A stretch of 49,582 nucleotides of DNA from Chiloscyllium plagiosum (taxonomy: Eukaryota). Every line of letters begins with the position of its first letter. Position 1 is the stretch's first letter. Location: positions 10,680,934 through 10,730,515 of the forward strand of contig NC_057755.1 in NCBI RefSeq assembly GCF_004010195.1, given 5' to 3'. The notes under the pieces were generated by a model. That model was not told where the DNA came from. It did no database searches and saw nothing but the letters and a program-made list of their open reading frames with translations. The position numbers and the translations under genes were made by a program. Shown here in pieces: positions 1,471 through 44,500 of the stretch.

Positions 1471-1479
1471 AGCTGTCCT

Positions 1480-9142: not shown

Positions 9143-9672
9143 TGATAGTGACAACAGTACGTTTGTATAACCAAATAATTTTATAAACTCTCATAACAGC
9201 TGAACAGCAAACCAGCTTCAGGATCTGTTTGGAAAATGCAAATTCAGTGTGTTCAGCTAAAACAGGAATGCAATCAGCTCTGCAAGCCTTGAAACAAGAA
9301 TTTGTAGTCTATATTTAAAACTCTGACTTGCACATGAGTATCATGTGGTCAACCTGCATGCTTTCTGGTAAAGAGTTTCATAAAAGGTATAGTGCTATAG
9401 TCAGTAATCTTAGTACTCAAGTGTTAAGTTCACATTAAAATATATATAATTTAAAGATTTACTTAGACTATGCTACATTTGTTAGGCTAACTATTTTTGT
9501 TTGGATTTTACTGATGCTTTGTAGTTCACCCCTAACTCTTTCCCAAAAGCCAAATTACTTATATTGCACAATTTTCTAATACACCAAGTTGCATGAGAAC
9601 TGCGTTATAGAAGTAGCTGTAAAATAAAACATTTATTTGGAAGCATTAGCTTTCAGAGCACTGCTCCTTCAC

Positions 9673-10757: not shown

Positions 10758-10908
10758 TCAACCACATTTTCACGGAAGACTCATTGATTACAAATACCAT
10801 GGTAACAAGATTATCAACGAACTATTTGTTCATCAAATAACGAAGACAAAGTCTTTCTTACGAACCCAACTTCATGATAGTTCTGTTCGCCGAGCTGGAA
10901 GTTTTTGT

Positions 10909-10950
10909 TGCAAACGTTTCGTCCCCTGGCTAGGCGACATCATCAGTGCT
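10909..10950 (-). ncRNA. Minimal type I hammerhead ribozyme in PLE terminal repeat
   Basis: Minus strand reads GCA-CTGATGA-T-GTCGCCTAGCCAGGGGAC-GAAAC-GTT-TGC. Confidence 0.75.
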
Positions 10951-11480
10951 TGGGAGCCTCCTGCGAAGCGCTTCTTTGATGTTTCCTCCGGTGTTTATAG
11001 TGGTCTGTCCCTGCCGCTTCCGGTTGTCAGTTTCAGCTGTCCGCTGTAGTGGTTGGTATATTGGGTCCAGGTCGATGTGTTTGTTGATGGAGTTTGTGGA
11101 TGAATGCCATGCCTCTAGGAATTCCCTGGCTGTTCTCTGTCTGGCTTGCCCTATGATAGTAGTGTTGTCACAGTCGAATTCATGTTACTTGTTGTCTGCG
11201 TGTGTGGATACCTGGTCGTGTCGTTTCGTGGCTAGTTGATGTTCATGTATGCGGATCGTTAGCTGTCTTCCTGTTTGTCCTATATAGTGTTTAGTGCAGT
11301 CCTTGCATGGTATTTTGTACACTACATTCCTCTTGCTCATGTTGGGTATCGGGTCCTTTGTGAGGACCAATATACCAACCACTACAGCGGACAGCTGAAA
11401 CTGAAAACCGGAAGCGGCAGGGACAGACCACTATAAACACCGGAGGAAACATCAAAGAAGCGCTTCGCAGGAGACTCCCA

Positions 11481-11522
11481 AGCACTGATGATGTCGCCTA
11501 GCCAGGGGACGAAACGTTTGCA
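11481..11522 (+). ncRNA. Minimal type I hammerhead ribozyme in inverted PLE terminal repeat
   Basis: CTGATGA 11485-11491; stem II GTC(G)CCT/AGG(G)GAC; GAAAC 11511-11515; palindromic stem III AACGTT; stem I GCA/TGC. Confidence 0.75.
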
Positions 11523-11560
11523 ACAAAAACTTCCAACTCGGCGAACAGAACCACAACAAC

Positions 11561-12123: not shown

Positions 12124-12714
12124 TCTTCCCACGTGTCCCTCTCAGTCCACTGCGGGCTCTGCTGCCGACCAAGATGCGTCTGATTGTCAGAGAGTTAAAC
12201 AGTATGATGAATGTGAAGGGAAGGCAGACAACCCAGGCAACATGAAACCAGGCGTAGGCTGCCCCTGGTGGTGAAGAGAAGAAGCTTTCCCTTGTCCTGC
12301 AACCCCACTGCATCTTATTGATGATTTGCTGAGGTTCAAATGCAAAGAGAAATGGAATGTTCTTTATCCCCATCATGACACAGAATGATACTGTAACGGT
12401 CACTGCAGTTTTCTGGGTGCAATGGCTTGTTCTAAGCTTTTGGCAGCAGATAATTACAAACCTGTCAAATGTGAAGCTGACGGTGAACCAAACGGACAAG
12501 TCAATGGTGACGGTGGTTAAATATAAAATTAGCTTGCAAATGGGAGTTAAGGCCAATAATGAAAATGGAAAATGAAAGGTGAAAATGTGATATAGCATCA
12601 CGTTGATGAGCATCACCAATAGATCTGCTGTTGCCATGGCTACCATGTAGACAGAGATACACTTGGAAAGGCCACAGTTTCCTTTGAAAAGAATCACGAT
12701 CGTCATCAGGTTTG
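12124..12714 (-). CDS. GPR139/GPR142-like class A GPCR copy 1, exon 2 (TM1-TM5; 3' end lost in gap)
   Basis: ANLMTIVIL, MATADLLV, SVWFTVSFTFDRFVIICC, CLPFTFIILFNSLT; acceptor CTACAG| at 12715. Confidence 0.9.
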
Positions 12715-12818
12715 CTGTAGAATTTAAAAAAAAACACAATTACTGAAATACCTTGTTAAAAAAATCTATTAATTAGCATTAGTCATGATACTGGCAACAG
12801 TGAATTCGAAATGCTCAC

Positions 12819-13675: not shown

Positions 13676-13837
13676 GACAAAGTTAAAACATGCAATGCCA
13701 GGTTATAGTCCAACAGGTTTGTTTGGAAGTATTCGTCATGACACTCATCTTTTTTTGTTAGAAATTGTCTTATGGTCCGGCTCCACAGTTACTGGGTGAA
13801 GGAGCAGTGCTCTGAAAGCTAGTGCTTCCAAATAAAT
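13676..13837. mobile_element. Two oppositely oriented fragments of a PLE-type terminal repeat with decayed hammerhead
   Basis: TGAAGGAGCAGTGCTCTGAAAGCTAGTGCTTCCAAATAAA at ~13797-13836; inverted partner ending in ...TTTGTTTGGAAGTA at ~13676-13731. Confidence 0.6.
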
Positions 13838-14324
13838 GCTTTCCTTTACAGGTAGTTCGATAACGCAGTTCTCATGCAAGTTGGTGTATTAGAAAATTGT
13901 GCAATATAAGTAATTGTTCATACAGGAAAGAGTTAGGGGTGAACCACAAAGCATTAGTAAAGTCCAAACAAAAATAGTTAGCCTAACAAATGTAGCATAG
14001 TCTAATTAAATCTTTAAATTATACATATATTATTGTGAACTTACCACATGAGTACTAAGATTACTGACAATAGCACTGTACCTTTTATGAAACTCTTCAC
14101 CAGAAAGCATGCAGGCTGACCACATGATACTCATGTGCAAGTCAGGGTTCTAAATGTAGACTACAAATTCTTGTTTCAAGGCTTGCAGAGCTGATTGCAT
14201 TCCTGTTTTAGCTGAACACACTGAATTTGCATTTTCCAAACAGATCCTGAAGCTGTTTTGCTGTTCAGCTGATGTGAGGGTTTATAAAATTATTTGGTTA
14301 TACAGTCTTACTGTTGTCACTATC

Positions 14325-15003
14325 AGGTTCATAGCTCCTTGAAAGTGGAGTCGCAGGTTGAAAGGATAGTGAAGAAGGCGTTTGGTATGCTTTCCTTTAT
14401 TGGTCAGAGTATTGAGTATAGGAGTTAGGAGGTCATCTTGTGACTGTACAGGATGTACAGACCACTGTTCGAATATTGTGTGCAATTCTGGTCTCCTTCC
14501 TATCGGAAAGATGTTGTGAAACTTGAAAGAGTTCAGAAAAGATTTACAAGGATGTTGCCAGGGTTAGAGCATTTGAGCTACAGGGAGAGGCTGAACAGGC
14601 TGGGGCTGTTTTCCCTGGAGAGTCAGAGGCTGAGGGGTGACCTTATAGAGGTTCATAGGGGGGCATGGATAGGAAAAGTGGTCTTTTCCCTGGTGTGAGA
14701 GTGTGGTTCAGAACTACAGGGCATAGGTTTAGAGTGAGAGGGGAAAGGTATAGAAGGGACCTAAGGGGCAACTTTTACACGCAGAGGGTGGTACGTGTAT
14801 GGAATGAGCTGCCAAAGGATGTGGTGGAGGCTGATACATTTGCATTATTTAAAAGGCATCTGGAAGGCTATATGAACAGGAAAGGTTTAGAGGGGCATGG
14901 GCCAAGTGCTGGCAAAGGGCACTTGATTAGCTTGGAATATCTTGTCACCATGGACGAGTTGGGTGGAAGGGACTGTTTCCATGCTGTACATCTCTGTTAC
15001 TCT
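14325..15003 (+). mobile_element. CR1 LINE 3' end (mirror of 8470-9142)
   Basis: RPLFEYCVQFWSPSYRKDVVKLERVQKRFTRMLPGL; RGNFYTQRVVRVWNELP. Confidence 0.92.
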
Positions 15004-15895
15004 ATGATAATTGCTGGTCTTTGAAAATGCCAGCCAGTAAGCCCCTCCCTCCTAGGGAATACATCCAGTTCATTTCTGGACTTAGCACTTGTCTTAATAT
15101 TCTTGTCCCTGAAACAAAAATTGGAGAATAAGGTCTTTTGTCACAGACAGCTCACATTTTAACTCCTCACAATATCATGCTGCTAACCAGTGGCTGTGCC
15201 CCTTGGTTCTTTTATCCACAACTTTTCAGTCATGCTGATCAGAGATGTTATTACACAAGCTAGAGCAGATGGGTCTGGACCCCAGGTCTCATGGCTCAAA
15301 GAAAGGATCACAACCACTCCCAAAAGAGCTCCCAGTGCCTCTGTCGTACAGTGGAAGGTTTACCAGCCCCAGTTGCCCCCGTAGGAGGAACTACCACATG
15401 ATAAAATGCTGGCCCTCAATGTCACCCCAACACATTGCAAAGAGCTGAAAATAAAACGTCACATGTGTTTGAGCCTTCGAAGACTGTGATCAGACAGATC
15501 AGAGTGAGGGTGGGATGGAGAATGACAATGTGACACGATTGGGCTGTTATTGTCATGTTTCCTGAATGAACACAAGTGCTCAGTCAAGTGAACACCAAGT
15601 TGGAATTATTTTCCACAAAGACAGGAAGTGGATTATTGAACAGTGAGGACAGTGTATCGACATTTTAAAAGGGGCAACAGATTTGATGGATTTCTGTCGG
15701 GACTCTTCGGGATCCAGGGACTGAGAAAGGAGGCAGTGAGATGGTTGATTTTGTATCTCTTCCCTTGACACACACAGACGCTATTTCTAGTCTGTGGTAC
15801 AAGTCCCAAAATGCACTTCCGTAACTGGACTGATTCTAATGAGCATCCCCCACAATGCGGACCAAATCATGAGAAAATAATTTATTCACCCTCTT

Positions 15896-15983
15896 TCACT
15901 CTGTTATTACAGTTAAATCACTTGATGGATGAACCCACTTAAATCTTTTCAGTCCTTCCCCAGAGAATAGATTATTCTTCAAG
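15896..15983 (-). CDS. NLR copy B terminal coding exon
   Basis: LKNNLFSGEGLKRFKWVHPSSDLTVITE*; 88 nt as in copy A. Confidence 0.87.
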
Positions 15984-16464
15984 CTGAAAAATAAATTGCA
16001 ATAATCAATAAAGAGTAGCTTCTTACATTGATGATGCTTAAAGATATAACTTTTTAAACTGATTTTATTTACTGCACTTTTTAGTACTGTTGTATTTATC
16101 AAAGAGAGATATCCAGCTGGTGAGTATACAGCTATTGAGATTTCCTAATTGTGATTTAGAATCTTGATTTATACAACATGGAAACAGACATTTCTCTCCA
16201 ACTTGTTAATGCTGCCCAGATATCCCAATCAAATTTCGTCACATTTGGCAGGGTAACTATTTGTGAGACCGATCATATACTTGCGAAGGATCAAAAATTA
16301 AGTTTAAATCAGTATTCTGTGTGTCTTGGTGGAAAACTGTTTGCGTTAACATAGACGTCTGAGAAAATGTTCTCGGCCTTTATGTTAGGCCTGCAAAATA
16401 CCTGGTACCCTTCAGTTACTGTTGTCGGAGGCGATACATTTACTAAAAATCAAATCATCAGGAC

Positions 16465-16775
16465 AGCACAGTGGCTCAGTGGTGAGCACTGCTACCTCAT
16501 AGCACCAGAGGCACGGGTTCGATTCCAGCCTCGGCGACTGTCACATTCTCCTTGTGTCTATGTCGCTGTGCTCCAGGTACTTCGGCTTCCTCCCACATTC
16601 CAGGTTTGAGTGAATTGGCCATGCTAAATCACCCATAGTGTTCCGGGATATGTAGGTTAGGTTCAATAGTCAGTGCTAAATGCACAGCAATATGGTAAGA
16701 AAATGGGTCTGGGTGGGATACTCTTTGGAGGTTTGGTGTGGACTTGTTGGGCCGAATGGCTTGTTTCTTCACTGT
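16465..16775 (+). mobile_element. HE1-type SINE (older, full length)
   Basis: GCACAGTGGCTCAGTGGTGAGCACTGC, GGTTCGATTCC, tail GGACTTGTTGGGCCGAATGGC. Confidence 0.85.
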
Positions 16776-16857
16776 TGTGGTTCTCTTCGATCTGTGTTTA
16801 TTCCACAAATCAGAGCACATAAATTATGGAAGAAGAACATTTACATTACAAACTCAC

Positions 16858-17049
16858 TTGATTTCAGTCATTCGTGTGCAATTCTGAATGAACTGGGATA
16901 GTGCAGGAACAGATTGATCTGTCAGCCTGTTGGCATGGTCACCATTCAGATCATCATTGCTGATGTCCAGTTTTAACAACACAGTATTTTCACGAAGAGC
17001 AGAGGTTAAGATTTCCACACAGCCATCTGTGAGATTATTGGATTTTAAG
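16858..17049 (-). CDS. NLR copy B LRR exon 3 (192 nt)
   Basis: CAG| acceptor, |GTGAGT donor; encodes LKSNNLTDGCVEILTSALRENTVLLKLDISN. Confidence 0.9.
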
Positions 17050-17308
17050 CTGTATTGATTGAAGGAAAACACAAATTACATTCCCAGTAACATTCAGAGA
17101 TGAAAATGTCAAAATAAAGACAAACTTGCAAGGAATCACATTAAACTTCCAAGTTAATTGTAATTGTTGTTTTATCAGCTGTTCTTATGTCTAAATTAGT
17201 ACCAGAATACTAGAAATGGAAGTGTAGCATTTGCTGATAATTACTAACATGTACATTAAAATTTGTGTAGATAAATAACTTGTATTGCTTGATATAGTAA
17301 TTACTTAC

Positions 17309-17395
17309 GACAATGTCTCTATTTTGCAATATAAATACTTTAGAATGGCAGAGAGATGTGTCACTCCCAAATCACCCAGGTTATTCATGTTGAGT
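17309..17395 (-). CDS. NLR copy B LRR exon 2 (87 nt)
   Basis: GTCAG| acceptor; encodes RLNMNNLGDLGVTHLSAILKYLYCKIETLS; perfect donor |GTAAGT; phase 2-2. Confidence 0.9.
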
Positions 17396-18731
17396 CTGAC
17401 AAAAAATAAAAAGAAATAACACATAGGGAAAAATTAGTAGGATTGGAAATGTTCACAGGTCTATTGTGTTACTGGTGGTTTGGAGATACACGATAGGAAA
17501 GAGTGAAGTGAAATTTGATTTAGTTTTAAGGCTTGTATCTATTTGTTTTGGTATGAAAATATTACTGAGCGTCAGAGGGTACAGATCCTTCACTCAATTG
17601 TATTTCTGATGTCTGGAAGTAGAATGTATGACACTTAAGAAAAATTAGATGCATAATGCGCACCAGAATGGATGGCTGAACAAAGTTAATTGCACTGAAA
17701 GGACAGAAGAATCTTCAAAACCAAGTTACAGAGTAAAAGGGAACAGCAAGCAATCTTGATGGGTTTTTAATGGTATGAAGGGAAGGTTTAGTTGGGTTTT
17801 ACCGCGGCATTTTATTCGGAGTCTCGCTTCTTTTCAGATGTGTTAATGGCCGAGAGGTTGGTGCTCAGGGAAAAAAAAGAATTCCAGTATACGATTTCCG
17901 CTGATAGAGTATTCTAGAGCTAGACATAATCTGAGAATTAGGACCCAGACTGTTTAAGAAAGACGTGAGGAATCACTTCTACACACAAAGGTTGGGAGAG
18001 TTTTGTAACATTGTTCCACGGATGGCAGTGGATTAGTTGTTGATTTTAAATTGGAGTTAGGTATCTGTTTGTTGAACAAAGGTTCTAATGAATATGGGCC
18101 AAAGGCAGCTATGTGGAGTTAGGACACGGATCAGCCTTTGAATGGCAGAACAGCCTCAAGGGGCCGAATGGCCTTCTCCTGTTCTGATGACTGTTCAAAC
18201 ATGACCAACAAGGTAATCAAAGTCTTGTCATGTCTGACCAAATAATGCCATCGGGTGCTATTTTCTAATCACAAAGTGTGTGGATAAAACTATCCCATAA
18301 ACAACCCCCTCATTATTCTCATCACATTACCCAGCATCGCTGGGAACAGTGTTGTACACTTTGGCATCACAGATGCACATCTTCCATATACAGTAGTATT
18401 TTATTGTCCGCCTCTATAACTCTACAGATATGGGCAATGTGCAAAAGGGGAGACAATTTGAGTGATTAAATCAAAGAAGCAAAAGGTCTTTTCAATGTGT
18501 AGTCAGATTTTCTATTCTTAAGATCTGTTTACTGACAAATCATTGCATGAGGTGGTATTATACCGATGGTTTGATTATGTTTAGCGATTTCATGTCATCA
18601 TGATTTCATGAATGGTTTGACAAGATCCTGTCCTTGATTAATGTAACATGAGTTATTTATAGATATTGCCCCAGATACTGCTGCATCCCGTTATGATGTT
18701 ACAACGTTATTAAATAACGGTGTTGCATTAC

Positions 18732-20470
18732 CTGAGTACCTCGCATTTATGTAACACTGACTCCAGCTGGTGGATGCCCTCATTTCCTATCCCACAACCG
18801 TCCAGATCCAGCTCCTCAATCTCCTGAACCATCATTAAAGCTTTTGACAGAACCGTACAGTCAAAGGTTTTATGAGGGCACTTTGTGAATCGTAATGTCT
18901 TCATTGGAGTTAAGACATCTTTTAGCAGCATGGCATCACCAAATTCAAGGAGACAATGCAATATTTCAAGGAGACCTTTTTGGTTTCTCTCACTTTCCAG
19001 GTTCTGCACATAACTGTTGAATTTTTCTTTCAGCCAGTCTGATACATTTGAAGCTGTTTCAGACTGTAGTTCTCCCCAGTAAAACCCAACCTGTTTCAAT
19101 GAATTTGGTGATGAGAGGCCAATGAAGAAACGGGAAACAAATTTAAACCTGTCGTCCGTGCAGCTGTACCATTCAGTAAGTATTTTTTTCACTTGGTCAG
19201 CTGGTGTACTTTGACATTTAAACAGGGCAGCAACAAAATCCTTCAAAATGGGGTGAGTGAACACGTAGCTAATACCATCATTGTCTTGAATTTCTATCAT
19301 AAATCCCGAGATCCAGTTGGAAATAGGGAGCTTGTGCTGTTTGAATTGGCCACTATTAAACACATTGGTTTTATTGCAAATTCCCCAGTAGGCTAAGCTA
19401 CCCAATTTCAGAAGGACATTGTGAGCATTGACATCATCATAAAAACATTTCTTCAAAAGACAAGTGACATAAGTGAGGAACACCCTTGTACAGGTTGTGA
19501 ATGCTGGTATCTGGGCTCCTTCTTTCTGCTGGGCTTCCAGTATTGAACATAGAACCGAGCAGAAGCGAGGATTATGGCACATGGCGTATAATTTCTCATC
19601 CTGATCAATAAAATCTGAAGCAAACTGTCCAGCTGCAGAGCAGCGATGAGAATATTCTTTCATCGTGTCTGCACTGAAGCCCAGGATATCGACAACTCGA
19701 TTTAATCCGACTTTCTCAAGAGTCTGCAGTTTCCATGGGGAACTCGTTCCCAACACTGAGCAGCCTTTCAGCAACTGCCCTTTTATCAGACTGCACACAA
19801 TGTGGGAGATTTCACACAAATGTTCAGGCCCGAAACTCTGAGATCCATCACCATTGGCACTTGGCACCTCAGTGATATCGATGGGTTTCTGGAAAAGATC
19901 CAAGTCATCGAATATGAACAGTATTTTCTCTGGTTTGTTCCACAGAAACTCTAAGTAGTTTGTGAAATTGGGAAAGAAATCTAATATCAGTTCATTTAAG
20001 CAGGTTTCCCCATCGATGGAATTCAATTTCTGAACTTTAAATGGAAAGATCACGTCAATCTCTCGGTACATTTCACCTGCTGCCCAGCCATGTATTATTT
20101 TCTGTATTATGGTACTTTTCCCAAAACCTGATGGTCCAATGATGAGAGTGGTCCCAGTGCCTCCCGTCTGATTACAATGTTTTCTCAGTAACCTATCTAA
20201 CGGTATTTCTTCCCGATAATTTTGCTCAGCTTTCCTCCAGATTTCTCCACCTGCCGTACTCCTGGTCTTCAGTGTATTGTCTGTGTGTTCCTGCTCACCC
20301 AGTGAAGGAACAATAGTTACTTTGGTGTATCTTTCCCTCAGTGGAAATCTCCGAATTCTTCTGTTTTCTCCTGTGATTGTTAGATTCTCGTTCTTTTTGC
20401 GAAGGTAATCTTTGTGCTGCCGTTTTATATCTAAATTAAAATGTTCAGCAAGTTTACCATCACCATTCAT
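18732..20470 (-). CDS. NLR copy B, large NACHT exon; spliced product ~701 aa from this ATG
   Basis: Same 1739-nt length as copy A; GPSGFGKST, ILFIFDDLD, FTHPILKDFVAA, IEELDLDGCGIGNEG; donor |GTAATG. Confidence 0.95.
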
Positions 20471-21488
20471 ATTGCTAATATTTATCAGAATGATACTATG
20501 AACAAAATGCAAACTGACAAATTACAGAAATATCTTTCGCAAAGAAATTCCCACGTTGCAATTGCTTTTGTGCCGATCTCTGTAATTGTGAAACTTGTGT
20601 TATATTGATCAACTGATTTGATCTAATTTTTTCACAGAAGCAGGTAGTGGTAATCTTACTGGGCTTGTGATCCAGAACCCCAGCCTCTAACTGCTGCCTT
20701 TATCCTGAAAACCTTTCTTGAGCAAGGCTGTAAAGTTTGTTATTCTCCAGCCCTCTGGCCCTTGCCCTGCCTCCAGGAAGGCTGAATGATTACGGCCAGT
20801 GTCCCTTCAGTTCTCACTCTCACTACATTCAGTATGTCGGGATGGACTTCACCAGGTCGTGATGCCTTGTTCATGTTAACAATCATCAGTTCATTCAACA
20901 CGCCTTCCTCATCAATTTCAAACACCTCCCATGACAAAGTTACCTGCTCTGTCACAGCCTCCTTTGGAATATTCTGCAGAAGTTGTGATTAGTCGAGTTT
21001 TCTATTGGATGCTCTTGCCTCCCGTTTGCTAGTTCCTTTGTTTATTAACCTGGGCGATGTATTTATTCCCAAAGATTTAACACTGTGGTAGGGTAGAAGG
21101 TGAGAACGCCCCTGGTGCTCACCTTCCACCCTACCAACCTTTGCATAAACCAAATCATCCGCCGACATTTGCGCCACCTCCAAACAGACCCCACCACCAG
21201 GGATATATTTCCCTCCCCAACCCTCTCCGCCTTCCGCAAAGACCGTTCCCTCCGTGACTACCTGGTCAGGTCCACGCCCCCCTACGACCCACCCTCCCAT
21301 CCTGGCACTTTCCCCTGCCACCGCAGGAACTGTAAAACCAGCGCCCACACCTCCTCCCTCACCTCCATCCAAGGCCCCAAAGGAGCTTTCCACATCCACC
21401 AAAGTTTTACCTGCGCATCCACTAATATCATTGATTGTATCCGTTGCTCCCGATGCGGTCTCCTCTACATTGGAGAGACTGGGCGCCT

Positions 21489-21775
21489 NNNNNNNNNNNN
21501 NNNNNNNNNNNNNNNNNNNNNNNNNNNNNNNNNNNNNNNNNNNNNNNNNNNNNNNNNNNNNNNNNNNNNNNNNNNNNNNNNNNNNNNNNNNNNNNNNNNN
21601 NNNNNNNNNNNNNNNNNNNNNNNNNNNNNNNNNNNNNNNNNNNNNNNNNNNNNNNNNNNNNNNNNNNNNNNNNNNNNNNNNNNNNNNNNNNNNNNNNNNN
21701 NNNNNNNNNNNNNNNNNNNNNNNNNNNNNNNNNNNNNNNNNNNNNNNNNNNNNNNNNNNNNNNNNNNNNNNNNNN
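21489..21775. other. Assembly gap (N run)
   Basis: 287 N. Confidence 1.
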
Positions 21776-21843
21776 TATGCTACTCTCTCCCCACCCCCAC
21801 CCTCCTCTAGCTTATCTCTCCATGCTTCAGGCTCTCTGCCTTT

Positions 21844-21879
21844 ATTCCTGATGAAGGGCTTTTACCCGAAACATCGATT
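21844..21879 (+). ncRNA. Minimal hammerhead ribozyme, slightly decayed
   Basis: ATTC-CTGATGA-A-GGGC-TTTT-ACCC-GAAAC-ATC-GATT; GTC>ATC change and one stem II mismatch. Confidence 0.55.
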
Positions 21880-21973
21880 TTGCCTGTCCTCGGATGCTAC
21901 CTGAAATACTGTGCTCTTCCAGCACCACTGATCCAGAATCTGGTTTCCAGCATCTGCAGTCATTGTTTTTACC

Positions 21974-22375
21974 TTATTGGGTGGTAATGGTTTGGTGGTG
22001 GAGAAGACCCAGGATCTGCATGTCCTTGATGGAGTGGGAGGGGTTGGTGAAGTGTTCAGCCACAGGGCAGTGGGGTTGGGTGGTGCTGGCATCCCAGAAA
22101 TGTTCTCTGAAATGATCCACAAGTAAGGAAACCTGTCTCCCCGATATAGAGGCGACCAAGTTGGATTCAACGCATAAAGTAGATGACATCGATGGAGGTA
22201 CAGGTGAATTTTTGTCAGATGTGAAAGGATCCTCTGGGGCCTTGGGCGGAGGTGAGGGGAATGTGTGGATGCAGGTTTTGCACTTCCTGCATTGACAGGG
22301 GAGGTTGCTTGGTGTGTGGTGTTGACTGGTGGGTGCCCCTGGAGATAGAGCAGAGGATGTCTACGAACACCCTTG
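21974..22375 (-). mobile_element. Degraded PLE remnant (mirror of ~700-1107)
   Basis: Reverse complement of the arm A PLE fragment, truncated at the 21088-21972 insertion. Confidence 0.8.
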
Positions 22376-22849
22376 CTCTGCTCAGGGAGTGGTGAACAAC
22401 AAAGGGAGAGGAATGTAGTATTTCCACTTCCAACTCTATTTTGATTCAGTCCCTGCCATCCCCTTCCCTTCTTTGGTCACCTAGCATTGCCCTTTGATGA
22501 GAAGGGCACTGCTTGTCGCTGGCCACTTACTTCCTGGTGGTGGATCACGAATAAAGATTGATGCGCTCATTGTTATTCACTGCATACACACAACATGGGT
22601 GCTGGGAATAAATAAACTCTACCGCTGTTTGGCAATAGTGTGGGGATTTATATTAAAAAAATTAAAATCTTATTTATAATCAGTCACAATCTCGTCATCT
22701 GTGGACTGACTCCAAGCTAGCTAGCCACAGCCAGTGTACTGTGGGGAAGAAATCAGTTGTCTTACATTTTTGATTTTTGTTTTTGTGTTTCTGGGTGTCT
22801 TTTCTTTTATTGGGCTGTATTCCGCTGCGCAAGCAGTCACCATCACCGC

Positions 22850-23185
22850 TGGTGTAGCCTGGGCCTCAATCCACTGCTGCTGCCTAGGACTGACTCCACT
22901 GCTACAGTCTAGGCCTGACACCACTGCTGCAGCCTGGGCCTGACTCCACTGCTACAGCCTAGGCCTGACTCCACTGCTACAACCTGGGTCTGACTCCACT
23001 GCTGCAGCCTGGGCCTGACCCCACTGCTGCAGCCTGGCTCTGACACCACTGCTGCAGAATGCACCTGATGCCACTGCAGATGCCTGGACCTGACACCACT
23101 GCTGCAGCCTGGCACTTACCCCACTGCTGTAGCCTGGCCTTCCTCAGTGCCATAGCCTGGGGTGACCCCACTGCTGCAACCAGGA
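22850..23185 (-). repeat. 25-bp minisatellite (mirror of 1-215)
   Basis: Repeated CCTGACTCCACTGCTGCAGCCTGGG variants. Confidence 0.93.
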
Positions 23186-23729
23186 CTTGGAGTAAAATAT
23201 TGTAAAAGGAAAATTATATCTGAACAGAAAACTCCCGGATGTCCCCAGAGATGAAGTACAAGGTTTCCTTGCCCATGACATTTTACAGGACTCCGTGACC
23301 ACAAAGAGATATCCCTGGGCAGCTCAATCCCGATTCCACAGTGAGGTGGCTTCATTACTGGAGGCTCAGTCCCGGCACTGGGTTGGAACTTTATCAAGAA
23401 TGATGGTGTCTGCTAACAGGCCTGTCACATAGGGTTCAGTGTTCATGGATATGGCAGGCTATTCTGTCTTTTGTCTGTGGGACAGTTCTCCCAACATTGG
23501 CAAAGGTCCTGATCTTTGTTTATGATGGATTTTCAGGATCAATCTCGGAGTTTCATTTGATACCAGTTAATTCAACGCGTTTGTACAATGAATTACAATT
23601 AATCGTTGTGGTCAGTTGGCACGTTAGATTCAGCCACATTGCTTTGTGTCTGGAGACAAACATAGGCCAGACCATATAAGACTTGCAGATGTCCTTCACA
23701 AAGACCATATTACATAGGAGCAGAAGTTT

Positions 23730-25244: not shown

Positions 25245-25690
25245 TCAGTGGTTAGCACTGCAGCCTCACAGCGCCAGGGATCTGGTACTGATCCCACACT
25301 CGGATGGTTGTCTGTGTGGAGTCTGGGTTTCCTCTGGATGCTCCAGTTTCCTCCCAGAGTTCAAAGGTGCGCTGGTCCGGAGGATTGATCATCTGTAATT
25401 ACCCTATAATGTCCAGAGGTGAAGAAGGGCTTATGCCCGAAACGTCGACTCTCCTATTCCCTGGATGCTGCCTGACCTGCTGCGCTTTTCCAGCAACACA
25501 TTTCCAGCTCTGATCTCCAGCATCTGCAGACCTCACTTTCTCCTGTCCAGAGGTGTGCAAGTTAGGTGGATTAGCTGTGGGAAATTCAGCGTTACGGGGA
25601 TATAGCAAGGTGCTGGTCTGGGAGGGATGCATTTTGAAGATTTGGTATGGGCTAAATGGCCTGTAGGGATCACACAGTAGGGATTCAATT
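25245..25690 (+). mobile_element. HE1-type SINE interrupted by a PLE terminal-repeat insertion
   Basis: CAGTGGTTAGCACTGCAGCCTCACAGCGCCAGGGA head; GGGTTTCCTCTGGATGCTCCAGTTTCCTCCC core. Confidence 0.8.
25422..25543 (+). mobile_element. 122-bp PLE terminal-repeat insertion with 12-bp TSD, beginning inside the hammerhead core
   Basis: TGTCCAGAGGTG at 25410-25421 and 25544-25555; insert starts AAGAAGGGCTTATGCCCGAAACGTCGA. Confidence 0.85.
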
Positions 25691-27185
25691 ACACACCACC
25701 TGGGGAACGGTGAGACTTGAAGCCAGGCCTCTTAGCTTTAGGATAGGAACGTTAACACTGCACCACCTTTTTCTCTTGCATGTTATAAACACCACTTGGG
25801 AATTAATAGCAGCCACTGCAGCAGAATGTGCTGATTGTACAGAACCTCGAAACACAAAACGGATGATACTTAATCAATTCATTCCAAACCCCAGTGCAAA
25901 GGTTTCACTCCAAAACCTGACCTTACGGTTGGACTTTTGTTTTGTCTGATAAATGTTATCGCTGAAAGGCGACTCTTGTTACATGTTTTCCAATCTTTCC
26001 CATGCTTAATATTCCTCATTATCAGGAACAATGATGTTCAGCTGTTTGCTAAATACAACCTGAGTAAAGTCAAGTCACTACGTGTCTAAAAATAAAACTA
26101 ATTAACGTGATGATAAAGATTATCTTCAGCCAGATCAGCCCAAGTGCTCCCTCCTGTAACTTTCTGACTAAGAGCTCGGTTTTAACATGCACATTCTTCT
26201 CAATCAAAACCTTTTCATCAAATGTTGGTCTCTTACCCAAAACACCAGTGAAAATGTCCCACCATTTTATAGTAAAACTTGACATTGAGCCTGAAGCAAA
26301 TTGTTCTGTGTCTGTTGGTAGCATTAATCCTGAATCCTTAACTTTCAGCGACTGATCATTGTTTGTGTACTTATTAACTGAGTGTCAAAGGTCACAGATA
26401 ACAAGAGACAAAAACTACTTTGCAGTTTAAATGAAGCAGCGTGCAAGAGAAAAATATGCACGAAACAACTGAAACTAATATGTTAGTTTATGAGATTAAG
26501 TTTCCTTTTAGGTAATTCTATCCCTTTTTATTAGCTTCCAACATTGAATATGTTCCACATTTGAACATGAGGACTGGAGCGAACTGTGTGTGAGACCAAG
26601 ACTCTCGAAACAAACTCCTCTTGATCAATCTGTAATTTTACTTTGCCTTCTGTTTTTTTTTGTATACATATGCTTTTTGTGTTAAAGCAATTGGTTTGTT
26701 TAGAAGCAGGAACGGTCAGTTCTGCTGGTTTATATTCTCCACTAAGGACATGTTTCTGTTCGGCAAACAAACAAAAATTAGTCACAGCTGTAATTTCGTC
26801 ACCATCTCTGCGATAATCACTGTTTCAAATCTTGTTATTTCAAAAATAAACGTTATTCCATATACACATACATAGTTACTAAAGCATTTTTTGGCATGTG
26901 AGGAAAGTAAAACAAATATTGGAGTTTGACTCTATCCAGTAAACAAATCAAAGACATCTCTTATTTATGTAAGAACATATTTACATATATTGAGGCACCC
27001 GGAGGGTCTGCTAACTAAACTGACCCCCATTTCCCTTCAGCTGAATGACCTCAGACAGTGGTCTTTCTCCACTGTGCCTTGGTGGTAGCTGCCACAAGCT
27101 TTAGTACATCCCCTCAGCATGTTGCCTGCACCTTGGACTGTGCCAGTCTACAACACTCGGATATGGTCAACTCCTATCTCTGAAA

Positions 27186-27236
27186 TCTCCTGGATGCTGC
27201 CTGACCTGCTGCGCTTTTCCAGCAACACATTTCCAG
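27186..27236 (+). mobile_element. 51-bp PLE terminal-repeat fragment with 15-bp TSD
   Basis: CTCCTATCTCTGAAA at 27171-27185 and 27237-27251; insert matches ~25460-25507. Confidence 0.85.
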
Positions 27237-27409
27237 CTCCTATCTCTGAAAGACCAACAAATTTCAGAAAGGCCAGAGAGCGTCTTTCACCGAGTTGACA
27301 TTCCTCCCTGTGCAGTGGATGTTTGTCTCAGTGTGTATTCTAGAGAACGACCATTAGCTGTAGCTCACAGAGTCACACAACATCTTGACACAGAATTATA
27401 ACTGAGTGG

Positions 27410-30650: not shown

Positions 30651-31277
30651 GGATAATTCTGTTTCCGAGTGTTCATTGGTTTTATTTCAGGAATGCCTAC
30701 TCGGTAGGGCGGTCAGATAAATTGTATTCTCAGAATGTAACAATAATATCTTGCCATTAACCACAAAAAGAATAAATTAGGTTCTTGGGGACATAACCTC
30801 ACTAGACAAGAGCAATGTAAGAAAATATAACAGCGGTGACATCCACCAGCCTGCCCCCAAACACTTTATTCCCAATGAGTTCCAGTGGGAAACAAAACAG
30901 GAACAAACATTTGGATAACTTAAAATCAGAAGTTGCTCAGAAAACCCTCATCAGGTCTGGCAGCATCTGTGGAGAGGGAACCTTATTGTCCAGTCCTAAA
31001 GAATGGTAACTGGACTCGAAACATTAACTTGGCTTTCTCTCTCCAGTCGCTGCTGGGTTTGTTCAGTGATTGCTGTTTTCATATTTATTTCAGCTCTCCA
31101 GCATCCACACTTTATTTCCTTTTAGTTGCAAATGCACAGTCATAGTTGGCACTCAGAGCCAAGAGAGGTATGATAGCAGACCAGGAATTATTGAGGTTAC
31201 TAACAGACAAAAGACACTCATAATCCGATCCAGACGAGCAAGGGAACCAAAACTGAGAGACAATTTCCAAACAGAAA

Positions 31278-32164
31278 CTACTTTGCATTTCTTTGGCTTT
31301 GAATGATTCTGAAAACCAGTCGCCACGGAGAGTTCAGCACCTTCTTCAGCTCCTCCCTGAACTTCCCGTGTGTTGCAGCATAAATAAATGTGTTTGGGCA
31401 GGAGCTCAAAAGTTTTAACATCATTCCCGTTTCCGTGGCGATATACCCAGATTTTGTTCGGTCCCCTCCATCGTAAATGCTGTTGACCATTCTAGTTGTT
31501 GCAAAACTAATCACCGCCGTCAGCCACAGCAGTAAGAAAGAGCCTGATACAGCAAAGAGGAACATGATGGATTTCTTTCGGTTCTCCATTTCTAGATCTC
31601 GATGATTCTCACTGTGGGTACCTCGGAGACTGATTGTCATAGAATTGAACAAGGCGATTAATGTAAAGGGAAGCCAGATGACCCACACAGTGTGAAACCA
31701 GGCAAATGCAGCCCCTGGGGGTGAGGAGAAAAAGGCTACACGTGTCTGACACCCCCACTGCAGCTTGTGAATTACTCGCTGATGTTCATAGGCAAATAAG
31801 AAGGGGATGTTCTTTAACATAATCACAACAAAGAGGGTTGTTATAACCAAAACCGCAGTTCTCTTGGTGCAATACCTCGCCTTAAACCTTTGCCAGCAGA
31901 TCATTACAAATCGGTCAAATGTGAAAGAAACAGTAAACCAAATGGACACATCAATTGCGACAGGTGCTTTCTCCAGAAGTAACTTACAAATTGAAGTGAG
32001 TGAGAGGAATGAAAGCGGAAAGTTATAACTGATAACATGGTACAGCAGCACATTGTTGAACATGAGCAGTAGATCTGCTACTGCCATGGCCAACATATAG
32101 ATGCAGATACACCTGGAAAGGCTGCAGTTTCCCCTGCAAAGAATCACAATTGTCAGGGTGTTTG
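31278..32164 (-). CDS. GPR139/GPR142-like GPCR copy 2, exon 2 (spliced product 318 aa; 33-nt in-frame deletion after TM5)
   Basis: 7TM; MAVADLLL, FTFDRFVMIC, SGSFLLLW, SSCPNTFIYA; acceptor CCAG| at 32165. Confidence 0.92.
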
Positions 32165-32278
32165 CTGGAAGGAAAAAGAGAGGAGGGTTATAATGTCTCA
32201 AATCATTGCCAGGAAAGAAATGCATCATTTGACATTATCCAAAAAATGTCAATGAAAAAATTATTTGGAAACGCTTAC

Positions 32279-36035: not shown

Positions 36036-36539
36036 ACATGAGTTTACAATTGTTAGGAGGAACCCCTCTGGGTTACTAATGCCCATTAGGGAAGGAAACT
36101 GGTGTCCAGGCCTGCTCAGGCCTAGTCAGGACTCCAGACCCACAGCAATGTGGTTAACACTTAGCTGTCCACTGGGCAATAAGAGAATGTGCAATTAATG
36201 CTGATTATAGCCGGTGACACCCTCTGCCTGGTAATGAGCAATGAAAAACAATCATTCCTCTATTTTATTGCTGAAAGTGTGAATATGAACATTACCTCAC
36301 TCAGACTTAGACTCACCTTTTTTTGGGTTTAACTGATTTATTCGTTATTTTCTCTCCTTCATCTTAAAGATTTGGTCTTGTTCTTCATCTTGGGATTGAA
36401 GGTCATGTCTGACCTGTGGGCAATGTTATGATCAACAATTTCATCATTCCCAAGAAGCTCAGTCATTTATTAGGGATGAATTAAGCCATCAAAGTGTCAG
36501 CAGAATAATTTACTTTTGCTTCAGATTCCTGTTGAATTT

Positions 36540-36830
36540 TCATAGAATCATAGAATTCGTGCAGCATGGAAACAGTCCCTTTGGTCCAACACGCACACAC
36601 CGACCCTCTGAACAGTAAACCAACCAGACCCATTTCCCTATCCTATTAATCTCTATTAATCCCTGACTAATGTACCTAACCGACACATCGCTGAACCCTA
36701 TGGGCAATTTAGCACGGCCATTTCATTTAACGTGCACATCTTTGGACTGTGGGAGGAAACCGGAGCACCCGGAGAAAACCCACACAGACATGGGGAGAAA
36801 GTGCAAACTCCACCCAAACAGTGGGCAGAG
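36540..36830 (-). mobile_element. HE1-type SINE
   Basis: TGTGGGAGGAAACCGGAGCACCCGGAGAAAACCCAC (reverse complement of the SINE core). Confidence 0.85.
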
Positions 36831-37248
36831 GCTGTCCTTGCTACTTTTAACTTCCCTCCAACTCTCACTATTTGGCAAGATTCAGTGTACAGGCATTGGC
36901 CTTAGTTACAACTGAATATGGATTTCACAGGTACATTCCCATGTGCCTATGTTTCTGCCTTTCCAGTGGAATATATTTGTTCTTATCCACACTGATCATC
37001 TTTGCAATATTTTCCACTGTCGTATCTGTTATGAAGTTGAAGGCATATATGTTCACTCGAAAAGAGAAAGCGTTTCCTGAAGTTTGAAGTGAAGTTCAAG
37101 TGCAGGTTCAACTTTCTGAATGGAAAGGATGGCAAACAGGCTGTTCCCAAAATAGGAGGAGAAAGTGAGGACTGCAGATGCTGGAGATCAGAGCTGAAAT
37201 GTGTTGCTGGAAAAGCGCAGCAGGTCAGGCAGCATCCAAGAAGCAGGA

Positions 37249-37286
37249 GAATCGACGTTTCAGGCATAAGCCCTTCTTCAGGAATC
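37249..37286 (-). ncRNA. Minimal type I hammerhead ribozyme
   Basis: Minus strand reads GATTC-CTGAAGA-A-GGGC-TTAT-GCCT-GAAAC-GTC-GATTC; intact CUGANGA, GAAA and GUC. Confidence 0.75.
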
Positions 37287-37287
37287 T

Positions 37288-37325
37288 GATTCCTGAAGAA
37301 GGGCTTATGCCCGAAACGTCAATTC
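37288..37325 (+). ncRNA. Minimal type I hammerhead ribozyme
   Basis: CTGAAGA 37293-37299; stem II GGGC/GCCC with TTAT loop; GAAAC 37313-37317; GTC 37318-37320; first stem I pair mutated. Confidence 0.7.
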
Positions 37326-37416
37326 TCCTGCTTCTTGGATGCTGCCTGACCTGCTGCGCTTTTCCAGCAACACATTTTCAGCTCTGTTCCCAAAATAGAT
37401 ACACATAACAAATAGC

Positions 37417-38170
37417 TGTAAAATGGATACCCAAGTTTTGGTTGCTGTTTTGACAAAAATGGGAATTTAATCAATTAGTTTGAATTATGCCCAGGATACT
37501 AAAATCCAATTGTGTTTAAATTTATTGTTTGGCAACATTTGACCAATGGGATGGGGAGTATAAAAAAGTGAAGGCATTTTGAAAATTGGTGAGGGAGAGC
37601 AACTGCCACTGATTTGCAGAGCACCTGCCACAGAGCCGGACAGCTAACTGCCATAGAGCCGGACAACTAACTGCCATGCAGCCAGACAATTAACGGCCAT
37701 AGAGTTGGACAGCTAACTCCCTTAGAGCCAGGCAGCTAACTCCCATAGAGCCAAACAGCTAACGGCCATAGAGCCAGACAGCTAATTTACATAGAGCCAG
37801 AGAGCAAACTGCCCATTGCACATCTCGCTCTCAAAGGAATTAGAAAACACTGTGTATCAATGTACCTTTTCGTGGAGGACCTACTTCCAGTAAAAAGAAA
37901 GGAAGCAGATGACCCAGGGAAATCAGAGACAGAAGATTGAACACAGAAGAGCAGACAGAGACTGTGTGGCCTTGAGATTAAGTTAATGTAATGTTTAATA
38001 AATGTCTTATTGGAACAGCATTTTATTTAAAGATTTGGGGTCAGATACTGAGTAGTTCAGAAAACGGGGCTTGGATTTGTGACTAGTTCTTATTTAGTGT
38101 TCACTATTAGAGTCAAGAAAATAAATTGTTATTTTTCTTTAAAGACTCAAATTTAGGAGATTCCTGTCAC
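37417..38170 (+). mobile_element. Possible solo LTR (boundaries uncertain)
   Basis: TG start, CCAAT 37543-37547, TATAAAA 37559-37565, internal tandem array, downstream AATAAA signals. Confidence 0.4.
37628..37811 (+). repeat. 23-bp tandem repeat, 8 units (CCATAGAGCCRGACAGCTAACTG)
   Basis: Contiguous units with no spacers. Confidence 0.95.
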
Positions 38171-40178: not shown

Positions 40179-41098
40179 CTACTTTGCATTTGCTCGGTTT
40201 TGGATTACACTTAAAATTAGAAACAATGGAGCTTTCACCACCTTCTTCAGCTCCTCCCTGAACTTCCTTTGTGTTGCAGCATAAATAAATGTGTTTGGGC
40301 AGGAGCTCAAAAATTTTAGCATGGTTCCAGTTTCGGTGGCGATATACCCAGGATTTCTGAAATCACCTCTGTAGTAAATGCTGTTTACCATTCTAGTTGT
40401 AGCAAAACTAATCACCGCCGTCAGCCACAGCAGTAAGAAAGAGCCTGATACAGCAAAAAGGAAAATGATGGATTTCTTTCGGTTCTCCATCTCTGGATCT
40501 CGATGATTCTCACCGTGGGTACCTCGCAGACTGTTCCGTGCTCTGCTGCCAATCAAGACATGTTTGATTGTCATAGAATTGAACAAGGCAATTAATGTAA
40601 AGGGAAGCCAGATGACCCACACAGTGTGAAACCAGGCAAACGCAGCCCCTGGGGGTGAGGAGAAAAATGCTACACGTGTTTGACACCCCCACTGCAGCTT
40701 GTGAATTACTCGCTGATGTTCATAGGCAAATAAGATGGGAATGTTCTTGAACATAATCACAACAAAGAGGGTTGTTATAACCAGAACTGCAGTTCTCTTG
40801 GTGCAATACCTCGCCTTAAACTTTTGCCAGCAGATCACTACAAATCGGTCAAATGTAAATGAAACGGTGAACCAAATGGACAAATCAATTGCGACAGGTG
40901 CTATATATAGAAGTAACTTACATATTGAAGTGAGTGACAGGAATGACAGGGGAAAATTATAACTGATGATATGGTATAACAGCACATTGTTGATCATGAG
41001 CAGTAGATCTGCTATTGCCATGGCCAACATATAGACGGAGATACACTTGGAAAGGCTGCAGTTTCCCCTGCAAAGAATCACAATTGTCAAGGTGTTTG
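40179..41098 (-). CDS. GPR139/GPR142-like GPCR copy 3, exon 2 (spliced product 329 aa, intact)
   Basis: Full 7TM; MAIADLLL, LSIWFTVSFTFDRFVVIC, DPEMENRKKSI, SSCPNTFIYAATQRKFREEL. Confidence 0.95.
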
Positions 41099-41212
41099 CT
41101 GGAAAGAGAAAGAGAGTGCAGGTTGATAATGTTTACATGCATTGTTCAAAAAATTATATCATTTGACATTATCCAACAAGTGGCAAGGAACAAATGACTT
41201 AGAAATGCTTAC

Positions 41213-43579: not shown

Positions 43580-44500
43580 CACCCCTCCGTACCCCTTCAC
43601 TTCTCCCCCACAACAAGGTTCAGGACCCCGGTTCTCTCTCCCTCTCCCACCAGCTTCCACATTGATAGGATCATTTCCCATTATTTCCACTATTCCAGCG
43701 GAATTCCACCACCAGATACATACTCCACTCCCCTCCCTTTACCTGTCAGCTTTCCACAGGGAGCCTTCCCTCTGGGACACCCTGATCCACTCCCCCATTT
43801 CCAACTCCTCCCGACATCATCATGGCACCTTACATTGCAACCCCACACAGTTTAACACCCACCTGTTACCTTCCTCTGTCCTCACTACCCAAGGCTCCAG
43901 AGAAACACCTTCCAGGTAAAGCAGTGATTTACCTGCAGATCACTCAATCTGGGCTATTGTATTGGCTGCTCACAATGAGGTCTCCTCTACACAGGGGGAT
44001 GAAACGTAGACTGAGTGACCGCTTTGCAGAACACCAATGATCTGTCCATAATAATAACCCAGAGGCTCCTATTGCCTGACACTTCAACACTCCACCCTGT
44101 TCCCTGGCCACCATGGTTGTCTCAGGCTTGCTGCAGCGCTCCAGTGAAGCTCAGCACCAGCTGGAAGAACAGCATCTCCTTTTCCACATGGGACCCGACA
44201 GCCTTCAGGCCTCAATATTGAGTGCAACAGTTTTAGTGTATGAGCACCTTCTTCTGTTTTCTTTCCCCACTCCCCACAATCCCAGATCCTGCCATAACAT
44301 GGCTTCCTTCCAGCACAGCCACCTCCTTATTACCCGTCTAGATTCTCTTCATCCCTGGTTGACCATCAACAATACTTTGGTCTGTCTCTCTTCTTTCTCT
44401 CTTTCCCTGTCTACTCAGCTGCTGACTCCTTTAGCACCATACCCTCTCATCAGTATTTATACCACCTTTTCTGAGCTGCTGTCAGTTCTGAAGAAGGGTC
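43580..44500 (+). mobile_element. Degraded PLE (GIY-YIG region plus truncated terminal repeat)
   Basis: LSAFHREPSLWDTLIHS, KRRLSDRFAEH, LEEQHLLFHMG; ends TTCTGAAGAAGGGTC (start of a hammerhead core). Confidence 0.8.

What the first reader, a model, noticed from the sequence alone, without database searches (positions are those of the whole stretch)
37141..37398. Back-to-back palindromic double hammerhead ribozyme inserted as a 228-bp unit with a perfect 15-bp TSD
Seen: CTGTTCCCAAAATAG flanks both sides. Inside, two near-identical ~97-bp arms fold back around a single T (GGAATC-T-GATTCC). Each strand reads CUGAAGA, stem II GGGC-UUAU-GCCY, GAAAC, GUC. The inversion point sits exactly at the 5' edge of ribozyme stem I. 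Established: Penelope-like elements carry minimal type I hammerheads with a palindromic stem III that cleave as dimers, and often insert with an inverted terminal repeat. Inference: this is a non-coding, terminal-repeat-only (retrozyme-like) mobile unit. Transcription in either direction would give one hammerhead, but that hammerhead would be sequestered in a long dsRNA hairpin (a possible ADAR/Dicer substrate or cruciform).
Basis: partly seen in the sequence, partly recalled or inferred. Interest (0 to 1): 0.7.

Follow-up and report, generated by a model that had tools for sequence, protein, structure and literature searches.

The report
Head-to-head Penelope retroelement stubs, shark
This 228-base hairpin-shaped insert in a shark genome is two mirror-image end pieces of a very common Penelope-like jumping gene, each with a worn copy of that family's small self-cutting RNA motif, so it is a clean example of a known kind of insertion rather than a new mobile element.

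Summary
In detail: a 15-bp target-site duplication, a 228-bp insert, arms folded about T37287 and two minimal hammerhead cores. A contig from a second species joins the flanks with one copy of the target, so the insertion is real. It is not a retrozyme. The arms are the end repeat (pLTR) of a very abundant Neptune-type Penelope-like retrotransposon, and three older copies in the window lie downstream of GIY-YIG coding DNA. Inverted pLTR, one-sided tail and TSD together are the described Penelope insertion pattern. Most likely both target ends primed cDNA, at the family's two start sites, and the two cDNAs were joined head to head. Each hammerhead carries one damaging change. A transcript holds only one sense copy, buried in a -200 kcal/mol hairpin. 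Open lead: both arms share two non-consensus letters, one a G just before an initiator-like ATTCC, as if one capped RNA had been copied twice to its 5' end. The scan found this architecture before on other pieces of this genome. Low interest.

The parts
37141..37155 (+). Left copy of the 15-bp target-site duplication
   Evidence: Exact repeat. The empty site in run X9, record 19, keeps one copy.
37156..37191 (-). 36-nt 'tail' of the Penelope-like end repeat, on the left arm only
   Evidence: The main loose-end places of the family are 37156-37158 (X1: 347, 1420 and 900 contigs), and tail-only repeats join 37189 or 37191 back to 37157 in all 3 contig runs.
37192..37285 (-). Left arm: pLTR piece, hammerhead sense on the - strand
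   Evidence: 93.6% identical to the solo copy at 25420-25544 over 125 nt; alignment.
37249..37286 (-). Left minimal type I hammerhead (C3 37281, C17 37254); G10.1-C11.1 has become G.U through the change at 37262
   Evidence: 37262 A>G variant.
37286..37288 (.). Junction C-T-G: a mirror pair of non-family letters around one extra base
   Evidence: The family reads C or T, not G, before ATTCC. Other contigs lack 2 letters at 37285 or 37287, or read C at 37288.
37288..37325 (+). Right minimal type I hammerhead (C3 37293, C17 37320); the stem I pair next to the cut site is broken (A.C) by the change at 37321
   Evidence: 37321 A>G variant.
37289..37383 (+). Right arm: pLTR piece without tail, hammerhead sense on the + strand
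   Evidence: It ends at the same family position as the solo copy 27188-27238.
37384..37398 (+). Right copy of the TSD; its first 6 letters match the family's continuation at 5 of 6 (CTGTTC against CTGATC)

Best explanation
The insert is a dead-end integration product of a Neptune-type Penelope-like retrotransposon (PLE), made in one event after the window's lineage split from a related species, or still polymorphic. Shown: the TSD, the empty site, the family identity, the arm orientation and the one-sided tail. Inferred: the element's GIY-YIG endonuclease cut both strands 15 nt apart, leaving two 3' overhangs. Each overhang primed reverse transcription on the end-repeat RNA, one at the outer start site (arm position about 131, which gives the tail) and one at the inner site (about 96), helped by a 5-of-6 match between target and RNA. 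Both arms are antisense to the RNA when read from their own target end, as this model needs. Both cDNAs stopped at the same point, ATTCC, 28 nt beyond the ribozyme cut site, so the template was uncleaved RNA. The two cDNAs were then joined head to head and filled in. The hammerheads are passengers: each has since taken one CpG-type hit, and no transcript of the insert can hold two same-sense copies, which this class needs in order to cut.
For: Empty site: X9 record 19 runs 37047-37140 straight into 37384-37600, with 9 other letters in 311. Family size: 116,068, 97,135 and 101,602 contigs laid in the 3 contig runs, and 5 other clear copies in the window. 3 of these 5 (1378+, 21844+ across an N gap, 30156-) lie downstream of DNA that matches the endonuclease end of PLE proteins. 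The best protein match is 89% identical to a Chiloscyllium punctatum protein. Relatives carry RT, GIY-YIG and a C-x4-C-xx-C linker, which fits the CX2-5CxxC linker of Neptune elements (PMC8557442). The other 2 copies are solo stubs with 12- and 15-bp TSDs, one ending at the tail and one at the inner site. Literature: an inverted pLTR with a 30-40 bp tail at one end (PMC8557442); head-to-head junction palindromes are the most frequent arrangement, with TSDs of 8-10 bp (PMC3846280); a purified PLE protein cuts and extends both strands, starts at two internal sites that bound the tail, and uses uncleaved RNA (PMC11167929); paired min-HHRs occur on opposite strands (PMC4209133).
Against: No full-length element of this exact young subfamily was seen. 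The link to an ORF rests on older copies 79-85% identical to the arm, so the template could have come from a non-coding source copy. Both arms share two non-consensus letters (G at position 1; T at position 46, where 90-95% of the laid depth reads C), which snap-back copying explains just as well. [quoted passage not shown] The published opposite-strand pairs are about 100-700 bp apart, and these cores are 12 bp apart. None of the pieces listed from X1 or X5 spans either insertion junction, so presence of the insert in other individuals of the same species was not shown.
Confidence: 0.62

Rival explanations
1. Same element, other chemistry (snap-back or self-priming). One cDNA is primed at the tail end, reaches the end of the template, folds back and copies itself. 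Its new 3' end is captured on the second target overhang by the 5-of-6 microhomology.
For: The arms mirror each other to the last letter and share the non-consensus G1 and T46. Self-priming was proposed for PLE junction palindromes, on an antisense template (PMC3846280).
Against: The inner end point is also used by a solo copy with its own 15-bp TSD and no inverted arm (27188), so it is a direct priming site. Asymmetric head-to-head joints with one short arm occur (for example 37251 to 37288 with 3 letters between, and 37226 or 37250 to 37289), though most are marked 'between: not known'. A 1-nt loop cannot close without extra untemplated letters.
Confidence: 0.27
2. One reading: the palindrome is a non-coding, retrozyme-like unit that is transcribed, processed by its hammerhead and moved as a whole by PLE proteins.
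For: A clean TSD; two recognisable cores; raw RNA reads of the family exist (2,630 laid, 21 covering 37288); animal retrozymes are proposed to derive from pLTRs (bioRxiv 10.64898/2026.07.22.740005).
Against: It has no tandem same-sense hammerheads, so no monomer or circle can be released. The core is paired in the hairpin. Centres vary: 2 letters are left out at 37285 or 37287 in 19 and 23 contigs (X1), 4 and 6 (X5), 9 and 9 (X9), and C is read at 37288 in 60, 34 and 38 contigs. No pile-up of molecule ends was listed anywhere (table 6).
Confidence: 0.06
3. The host has put the hairpin to use (an ADAR or Dicer substrate in the 3' region of the GPCR gene that ends at 40179, or a cruciform).
For: A near-perfect 95-bp stem, about 2.8 kb downstream of a 7tm_1 gene on the - strand.
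Against: Absent from the one contig of a related species that spans the site, with flanks about 97% identical, and zero RNA depth on 36850-37135 in the 2% of X21 read. That is one library and a weak negative.
Confidence: 0.03
4. Assembly fold-back artefact.
For: The window has 3 N gaps, and no listed piece from the same species spans the insert.
Against: The arms differ at 3 places and in length, and both differences by substitution are CpG-type. The correct right flank resumes after a second TSD copy, exactly as the empty site predicts.
Confidence: 0.02

Closest known systems
Complex insertions of endonuclease-bearing Penelope-like elements: inverted pLTR, one-sided 30-40 bp tail, TSD (Arkhipova et al. 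2013, PMC3846280; Craig et al. 2021, PMC8557442)
   Same: Head-to-head inverted end repeats with a palindromic junction, a tail on one end only (36 nt here), a TSD, and a hammerhead inside the pLTR.
   Different: No ORF between the repeats: the whole insert is the two stubs. The TSD is 15 bp against 8-10 bp in the rotifer examples read. The arms mirror each other to within 1 nt.
Minimal hammerheads (min-HHR) of metazoan PLEs (Cervera and de la Pena 2014, PMC4209133)
   Same: CUGANGA core, an extra nucleotide before stem II, G10.1, palindromic ACGU in place of helix III, a short stem I. Opposite-strand pairs and solo truncated copies were reported there.
   Different: Stem II is 4 bp, not 7-8 as in Schistosoma. 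The pair is 12 bp apart, not about 100-700. Sharks are not named in the parts read (supplements not seen). Each copy here has one damaging change.
Poseidon element of the green anole, PAc (Frangieh et al. 2024, PMC11167929)
   Same: Two internal reverse-transcription start sites bounding the tail, both target strands extended, and an uncleaved hammerhead RNA as the template.
   Different: Other clade (Poseidon, against Neptune-type here). PAc starts without homology to the target, while two inserts here show microhomology at the inner site. Head-to-head products were not described in the parts read.
Animal non-LTR retrozymes (Cervera and de la Pena 2020, PMC7229834; Li et al. 2026, bioRxiv 10.64898/2026.07.22.740005)
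   Same: Non-coding, 150-450 bp scale, type I hammerhead, TSDs longer than 4 bp, proposed PLE origin.
   Different: Those are head-to-tail tandem repeats with canonical type I ribozymes that release circular RNAs. This is head-to-head, minimal, decayed and cannot release a monomer.
L1 twin priming (Ostertag and Kazazian 2001; title seen in a reference list; mechanism recalled)
   Same: Both target 3' ends prime cDNA, giving a head-to-head inversion inside one TSD.
   Different: In L1 the two cDNAs copy different parts of the RNA; here both copy the same 95 nt.

Membership tests
EN+ Penelope-like element insertion (Neptune type) | End repeat belongs to an element coding RT plus C-terminal GIY-YIG | tested here: met
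   3 of 5 other window copies lie downstream of GIY-YIG-like coding DNA; relatives carry RVT_1 and GIY-YIG. The link is through older copies 79-85% identical to the arm, not a full-length copy of this subfamily.
EN+ Penelope-like element insertion (Neptune type) | CX2-5CxxC linker between RT and endonuclease | tested here: met
   C-x4-C-xx-C is present in P0001, P0002, P0003 and P0009 and at window 770-1042; the last C is lost in 21097-21486. No tree was built, so Neptune against Nematis rests on the literature.
EN+ Penelope-like element insertion (Neptune type) | Inverted pLTR at the 5' side, head to head | tested here: met
EN+ Penelope-like element insertion (Neptune type) | 30-40 bp tail at one end only | tested here: met
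   36 nt, left arm only; tail-sized repeats of 33 and 35 nt in all 3 contig runs.
EN+ Penelope-like element insertion (Neptune type) | Target-site duplication made on insertion | tested here: met
   One copy at the empty site in X9.
Metazoan min-HHR | Core C3-A9, G12-A14, U16.1, H17, extra base before stem II, palindromic 15.2-16.2 | tested here: met
   Both arms.
Metazoan min-HHR | G10.1-C11.1 pair and a 4-5 bp helix I | tested here: inconclusive
   Left: G.U at 10.1-11.1, stem I 4 of 5. Right: G-C intact, stem I 3 of 5 with A.C next to the cut. Without the junction G, stem I is one pair shorter.
Metazoan min-HHR | Self-cleavage as a dimer or with protein help | not testable with these tools
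   No pile-up of read ends was listed in X21 (table 6); a polyA single-cell library is a weak test.
Animal non-LTR retrozyme | Head-to-tail tandem repeats, each with a type I hammerhead | tested here: not met
   Head-to-head, one sense copy per strand.
Animal non-LTR retrozyme | Canonical type I hammerhead | tested here: not met
   No helix III, and no Rfam hammerhead model at E up to 10.
Animal non-LTR retrozyme | Abundant monomeric linear and circular RNA | not testable with these tools
   Only one polyA library was laid, 2% of it read.

The most novel reading that the evidence does not exclude
These mini-palindromes record the Penelope 'strong-stop' step. The element's RNA starts at the A of an initiator-like CTCATTCC just upstream of the hammerhead. 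A dimeric RT-endonuclease holds one capped RNA and both target ends, and copies the same RNA twice, once from each of the two start sites. Each cDNA ends with a C opposite the cap, which gives the mirror G seen on both arms. This one model would explain why the tail is on one end only, why inverted repeats are head to head, and why the arms share rare variants. Full-length insertion would be the case in which one cDNA jumps on to the 3' repeat of the RNA.
Probability: 0.25. Interest if true: 0.6.

Novelty: new member of a known kind. Interest (0 to 1): 0.22.

Why it matters
As a single locus it matters little: it is one of very many dead stubs. Its use is as a clean mechanistic specimen. TSD, empty site, both start sites and the junction are all readable in 258 bp. 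How Penelope elements build their inverted repeats and one-sided tail, and what the hammerhead is for, are stated as open in the papers read (PMC8557442, PMC11167929). A shark genome with a very large number of such stubs allows a genome-wide test of twin priming against snap-back, and of a cap-derived G, without new experiments.

Tried and rejected
No whole genome is held for this window, so no genome-wide count of palindromes was possible. Rfam gave only miRNA-hairpin look-alikes below their gathering scores and no hammerhead. mir-4662 at E 8e-10 is rejected because it scores the perfect hairpin (52.8 against a cut-off of 97 bits). Pattern scans for the palindrome centre and the hammerhead found 0 stretches in metagenome contigs and 0 in viral contigs. 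A protein search with the 79-aa frame that crosses the centre, meant to read other centres, found no candidate; that frame is taken as spurious. Pfam gave 0 families for the three broken window ORF pieces; tblastn with relatives was used instead. Single-arm folds are no better than shuffles (z -0.79, 0.10, -0.51, 0.78). The two-strand dimer folds were not informative: the constrained structure (-12.3 and -10.9) was weaker than the free minimum (-18.5 and -20.4 kcal/mol), and the bracket string may not encode the pairs intended. No paralogous empty site was found inside the window. The look-up of sequencing runs listed no RNA holder on record, which is no evidence either way. Depth sums were not turned into a copy number, because the tool says they are not one. 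The share of G at 37288 (about 63% of depth in X1) was not used as support for a cap G, because records that match the reference letter are favoured. Joints that land on 37289-37291 (7 of the 15 shown; 900 not shown) were not counted as proof of a fixed 5' end, because 6 of these 7 are marked 'between: not known'. Paper searches: 'hammerhead ribozyme + Penelope + shark' gave 1 review whose only 'shark' is the shape simile; 'shark genome + Penelope + palindrom' gave 0; 'twin priming + Penelope + inverted' gave 2 unrelated listings. Repbase, Dfam, subscription journals and all supplements were not seen and may already list this family.

Full report
Observation. The described features are in the sequence. 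The 15-mer CTGTTCCCAAAATAG lies at 37141-37155 and 37384-37398 and nowhere else in the window. Between the copies are 228 bp. The inverted repeat 37197-37286 / 37288-37377 is 98% complementary with one base between the arms, and aligned with one gap the arms run to 95/96 nt with 2 substitutions. The whole folds at -200.3 kcal/mol, z -22.95, 0 of 200 shuffles as good. A minimal hammerhead pattern hit 2 places in the window, both here, against a mean of 0.03 in 100 Markov controls (the pattern was written after seeing the motif).

It is a real insertion. I laid 4 of 24 listed runs on 36850-37600 at 88% likeness. In run X9, labelled as a different organism from the best holders, one 392-nt contig matches 37047-37140 and continues directly with 37384-37600, with 9 other letters in 311. 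That is the empty site with a single copy of the target. None of the pieces listed for X1 and X5 (the best-holding organism) spans an insertion junction, and 273,700 pieces were not shown, so the filled allele was not confirmed in another individual. A fold-back artefact is still unlikely: the arms differ in sequence and length, and the correct right flank resumes.

What the arms are. The arm matches 5 other clear places in the window: 25420+ (93.6%), 27188+ (93.2%), 1378+ (84.9%), 30156- (80.0%) and 21844+ (79.0%). Three of them lie just downstream of DNA that tblastn aligns to the C-terminal part of Penelope-like proteins (770-1263; 21097-21489, separated from its repeat by an N gap; 30666-30264). 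A search with the 130-aa piece at 21097 gave 11 proteins among 104 candidates, the best 89% identical and named from Chiloscyllium punctatum, then Stegostoma (65%) and Mobula (61%). The host is therefore most likely a carpet shark (inference). These proteins carry RT and GIY-YIG domains (GIY-YIG in 3 of 4 scanned, one just under the cut-off; RVT_1 in 3 of 4, one under) and a C-x4-C-xx-C linker, which PMC8557442 (passages) gives for Neptune elements. The other two copies are solo stubs with TSDs of 12 and 15 bp. One ends at the tail end, the other at the same inner point as the right arm. The family is huge: 116,068, 97,135 and 101,602 contigs were laid in the three contig runs. The largest loose-end counts on the outer side fall at 37156-37158, and tail-sized repeats of 33 and 35 nt appear in all three runs.

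The architecture is described. PMC8557442 (passages) states that an inverted 5'-truncated copy often adjoins the 5' end and that a 30-40 bp tail is often present at one end only. PMC3846280 (parts 1-4 of 5) shows inverted pLTRs with 8-10 bp TSDs, calls head-to-head the most frequent arrangement, and proposes self-priming. PMC4209133 (parts 1-2 of 4) defines the minimal hammerhead, reports pairs on opposite strands about 100-700 bp apart, names Neptune elements of fish, and found no cleavage by a single motif and low cleavage by dimers. PMC11167929 (parts 1-2 of 4) shows that a purified PLE protein cuts and extends both target strands, starts at two internal sites that bound the tail, needs no ribozyme cleavage, and that no RNA-seq reads end at the cut site.

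The ribozymes. Both arms have the full core, the extra base before stem II and the ACGU palindrome. Each has one CpG-type change at a sensitive place: C11.1 to U on the left (37262), and G1.1 to A on the right (37321), which breaks the pair beside the cut. Stem I has 4 and 3 of 5 pairs. That these changes lower activity is inferred from hammerhead chemistry (recalled), not tested. Rfam found no hammerhead, which is expected for a motif without helix III (inference). A transcript of either strand carries one sense copy and its complement, and the core region is unpaired with mean probability 0.037 (+) or 0.001 (-). In X21, 2,630 of 12,955,460 records were laid (2% of the run), none on the unique left flank, and no place with many molecule ends was listed. 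These reads come from the family at large. Their polarity is about 2 to 1 in favour of one strand, the hammerhead-sense strand if the library follows the usual convention, which I could not check.

How it most likely arose. Read from each target end, each arm is antisense to the element's RNA, which is what two 3' overhangs of a 15-nt staggered cut would give if each primed cDNA. The left began at the tail end and the right at the inner site, where the target matches the family's continuation at 5 of 6 letters. Both ran 28 family-templated bases past the cut site, so the template was uncleaved. The priming and joining steps are inferred. Other records cross the centre with other letters: 2 left out at 37285 or 37287 in 19 and 23 contigs of X1, 4 and 6 of X5, 9 and 9 of X9 and 3 reads of X21, and C at 37288 in 60, 34 and 38 contigs. 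So such palindromes recur, with varying centres. The main rival is snap-back copying of one cDNA. It is favoured by two shared non-consensus letters: T at arm position 46, where 92-95% of contig depth and 90-91% of RNA reads have C (37241 and 37333), and G at position 1. One RNA copied twice explains these equally well, and the present data do not separate the two.

The lead worth keeping. The family reads CCTC|ATTCC at the junction (loose ends begin GAGG in X1, X5 and X21, with low overall agreement of 0.35-0.51), and 0 of 3 long window copies have G before ATTCC. TCATTCC fits the initiator consensus YYANWYY (recalled). An untemplated 5' G is taken as a sign of cap copying in L1 (PMC9341517, passages). 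If the RNA starts at that A, both arms are complete copies to the capped end. This rests on one locus: a private source copy with G, or chance end-joining, would look the same. I noted the idea before looking up earlier findings, and several of those also read the shared 5' end as the RNA start. They are unchecked notes and not independent support.

Membership and novelty. It meets the testable features of a PLE insertion and fails the two testable features of an animal retrozyme, tandem same-sense repeats and a canonical ribozyme (PMC7229834, passages; bioRxiv 10.64898/2026.07.22.740005, parts 1-2 of 5 and passages). I found no paper on this shark family in three searches (PMC6155905 passages), but supplements, Repbase and subscription journals were not seen. 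The scan's index lists 99 notes in this genome that fit 'hammerhead', 8 shown, and several describe the same palindromic stubs. Verdict: observation confirmed, interpretation partly supported, new member of a known kind, interest 0.22.

Noticed in passing
window 25410-25555: A 124-bp solo stub of the same young subfamily, with tail and a 12-bp TSD, inserted into a SINE-like repeat; its 5' end cuts into the hammerhead core.
   Followed up: partly
window 27171-27251: A stub of about 50 bp with a 15-bp TSD that ends at the inner start site, with microhomology to the family's continuation, and has no hammerhead.
   Followed up: partly
window 10880-11551: A second inverted structure: 10880-11064 mirrors 11367-11551 at 98.4%, around a GIY-YIG-like piece at 11328-11062 (-) of a different Penelope-like family, next to an N gap.
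   Followed up: no
window 1-9672 against 13796-23188: A large inverted duplication at 91-94% identity holding two NLR genes with NACHT exons at 2976-4757 (+) and 18728-20521 (-) (only the first was scanned against Pfam).
   Followed up: no
window 31278-32234 (-), 40179-41132 (-), 12124-12739 (-): A cluster of related single-exon rhodopsin-family GPCR genes; the first two are 84.5% identical in DNA and match 7tm_1, the third runs into an N gap.
   Followed up: no
window 37602-37831: A tandem array of 23-bp units about 200 bp to the right of the insert.
   Followed up: no
window 37420-37500: The right flank holds a piece of another multi-copy repeat: contig depth up to about 120,000 against tens on the left flank.
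   Followed up: no
window 36535-36834: A SINE-like repeat with several other copies in the window; it resembles the shark HE1/V-SINE kind (label recalled, from no call).
   Followed up: no
window 43728-44277 and 30932-30967: An older, more diverged Penelope-like endonuclease remnant, and a short piece of a related end repeat of another family.
   Followed up: no
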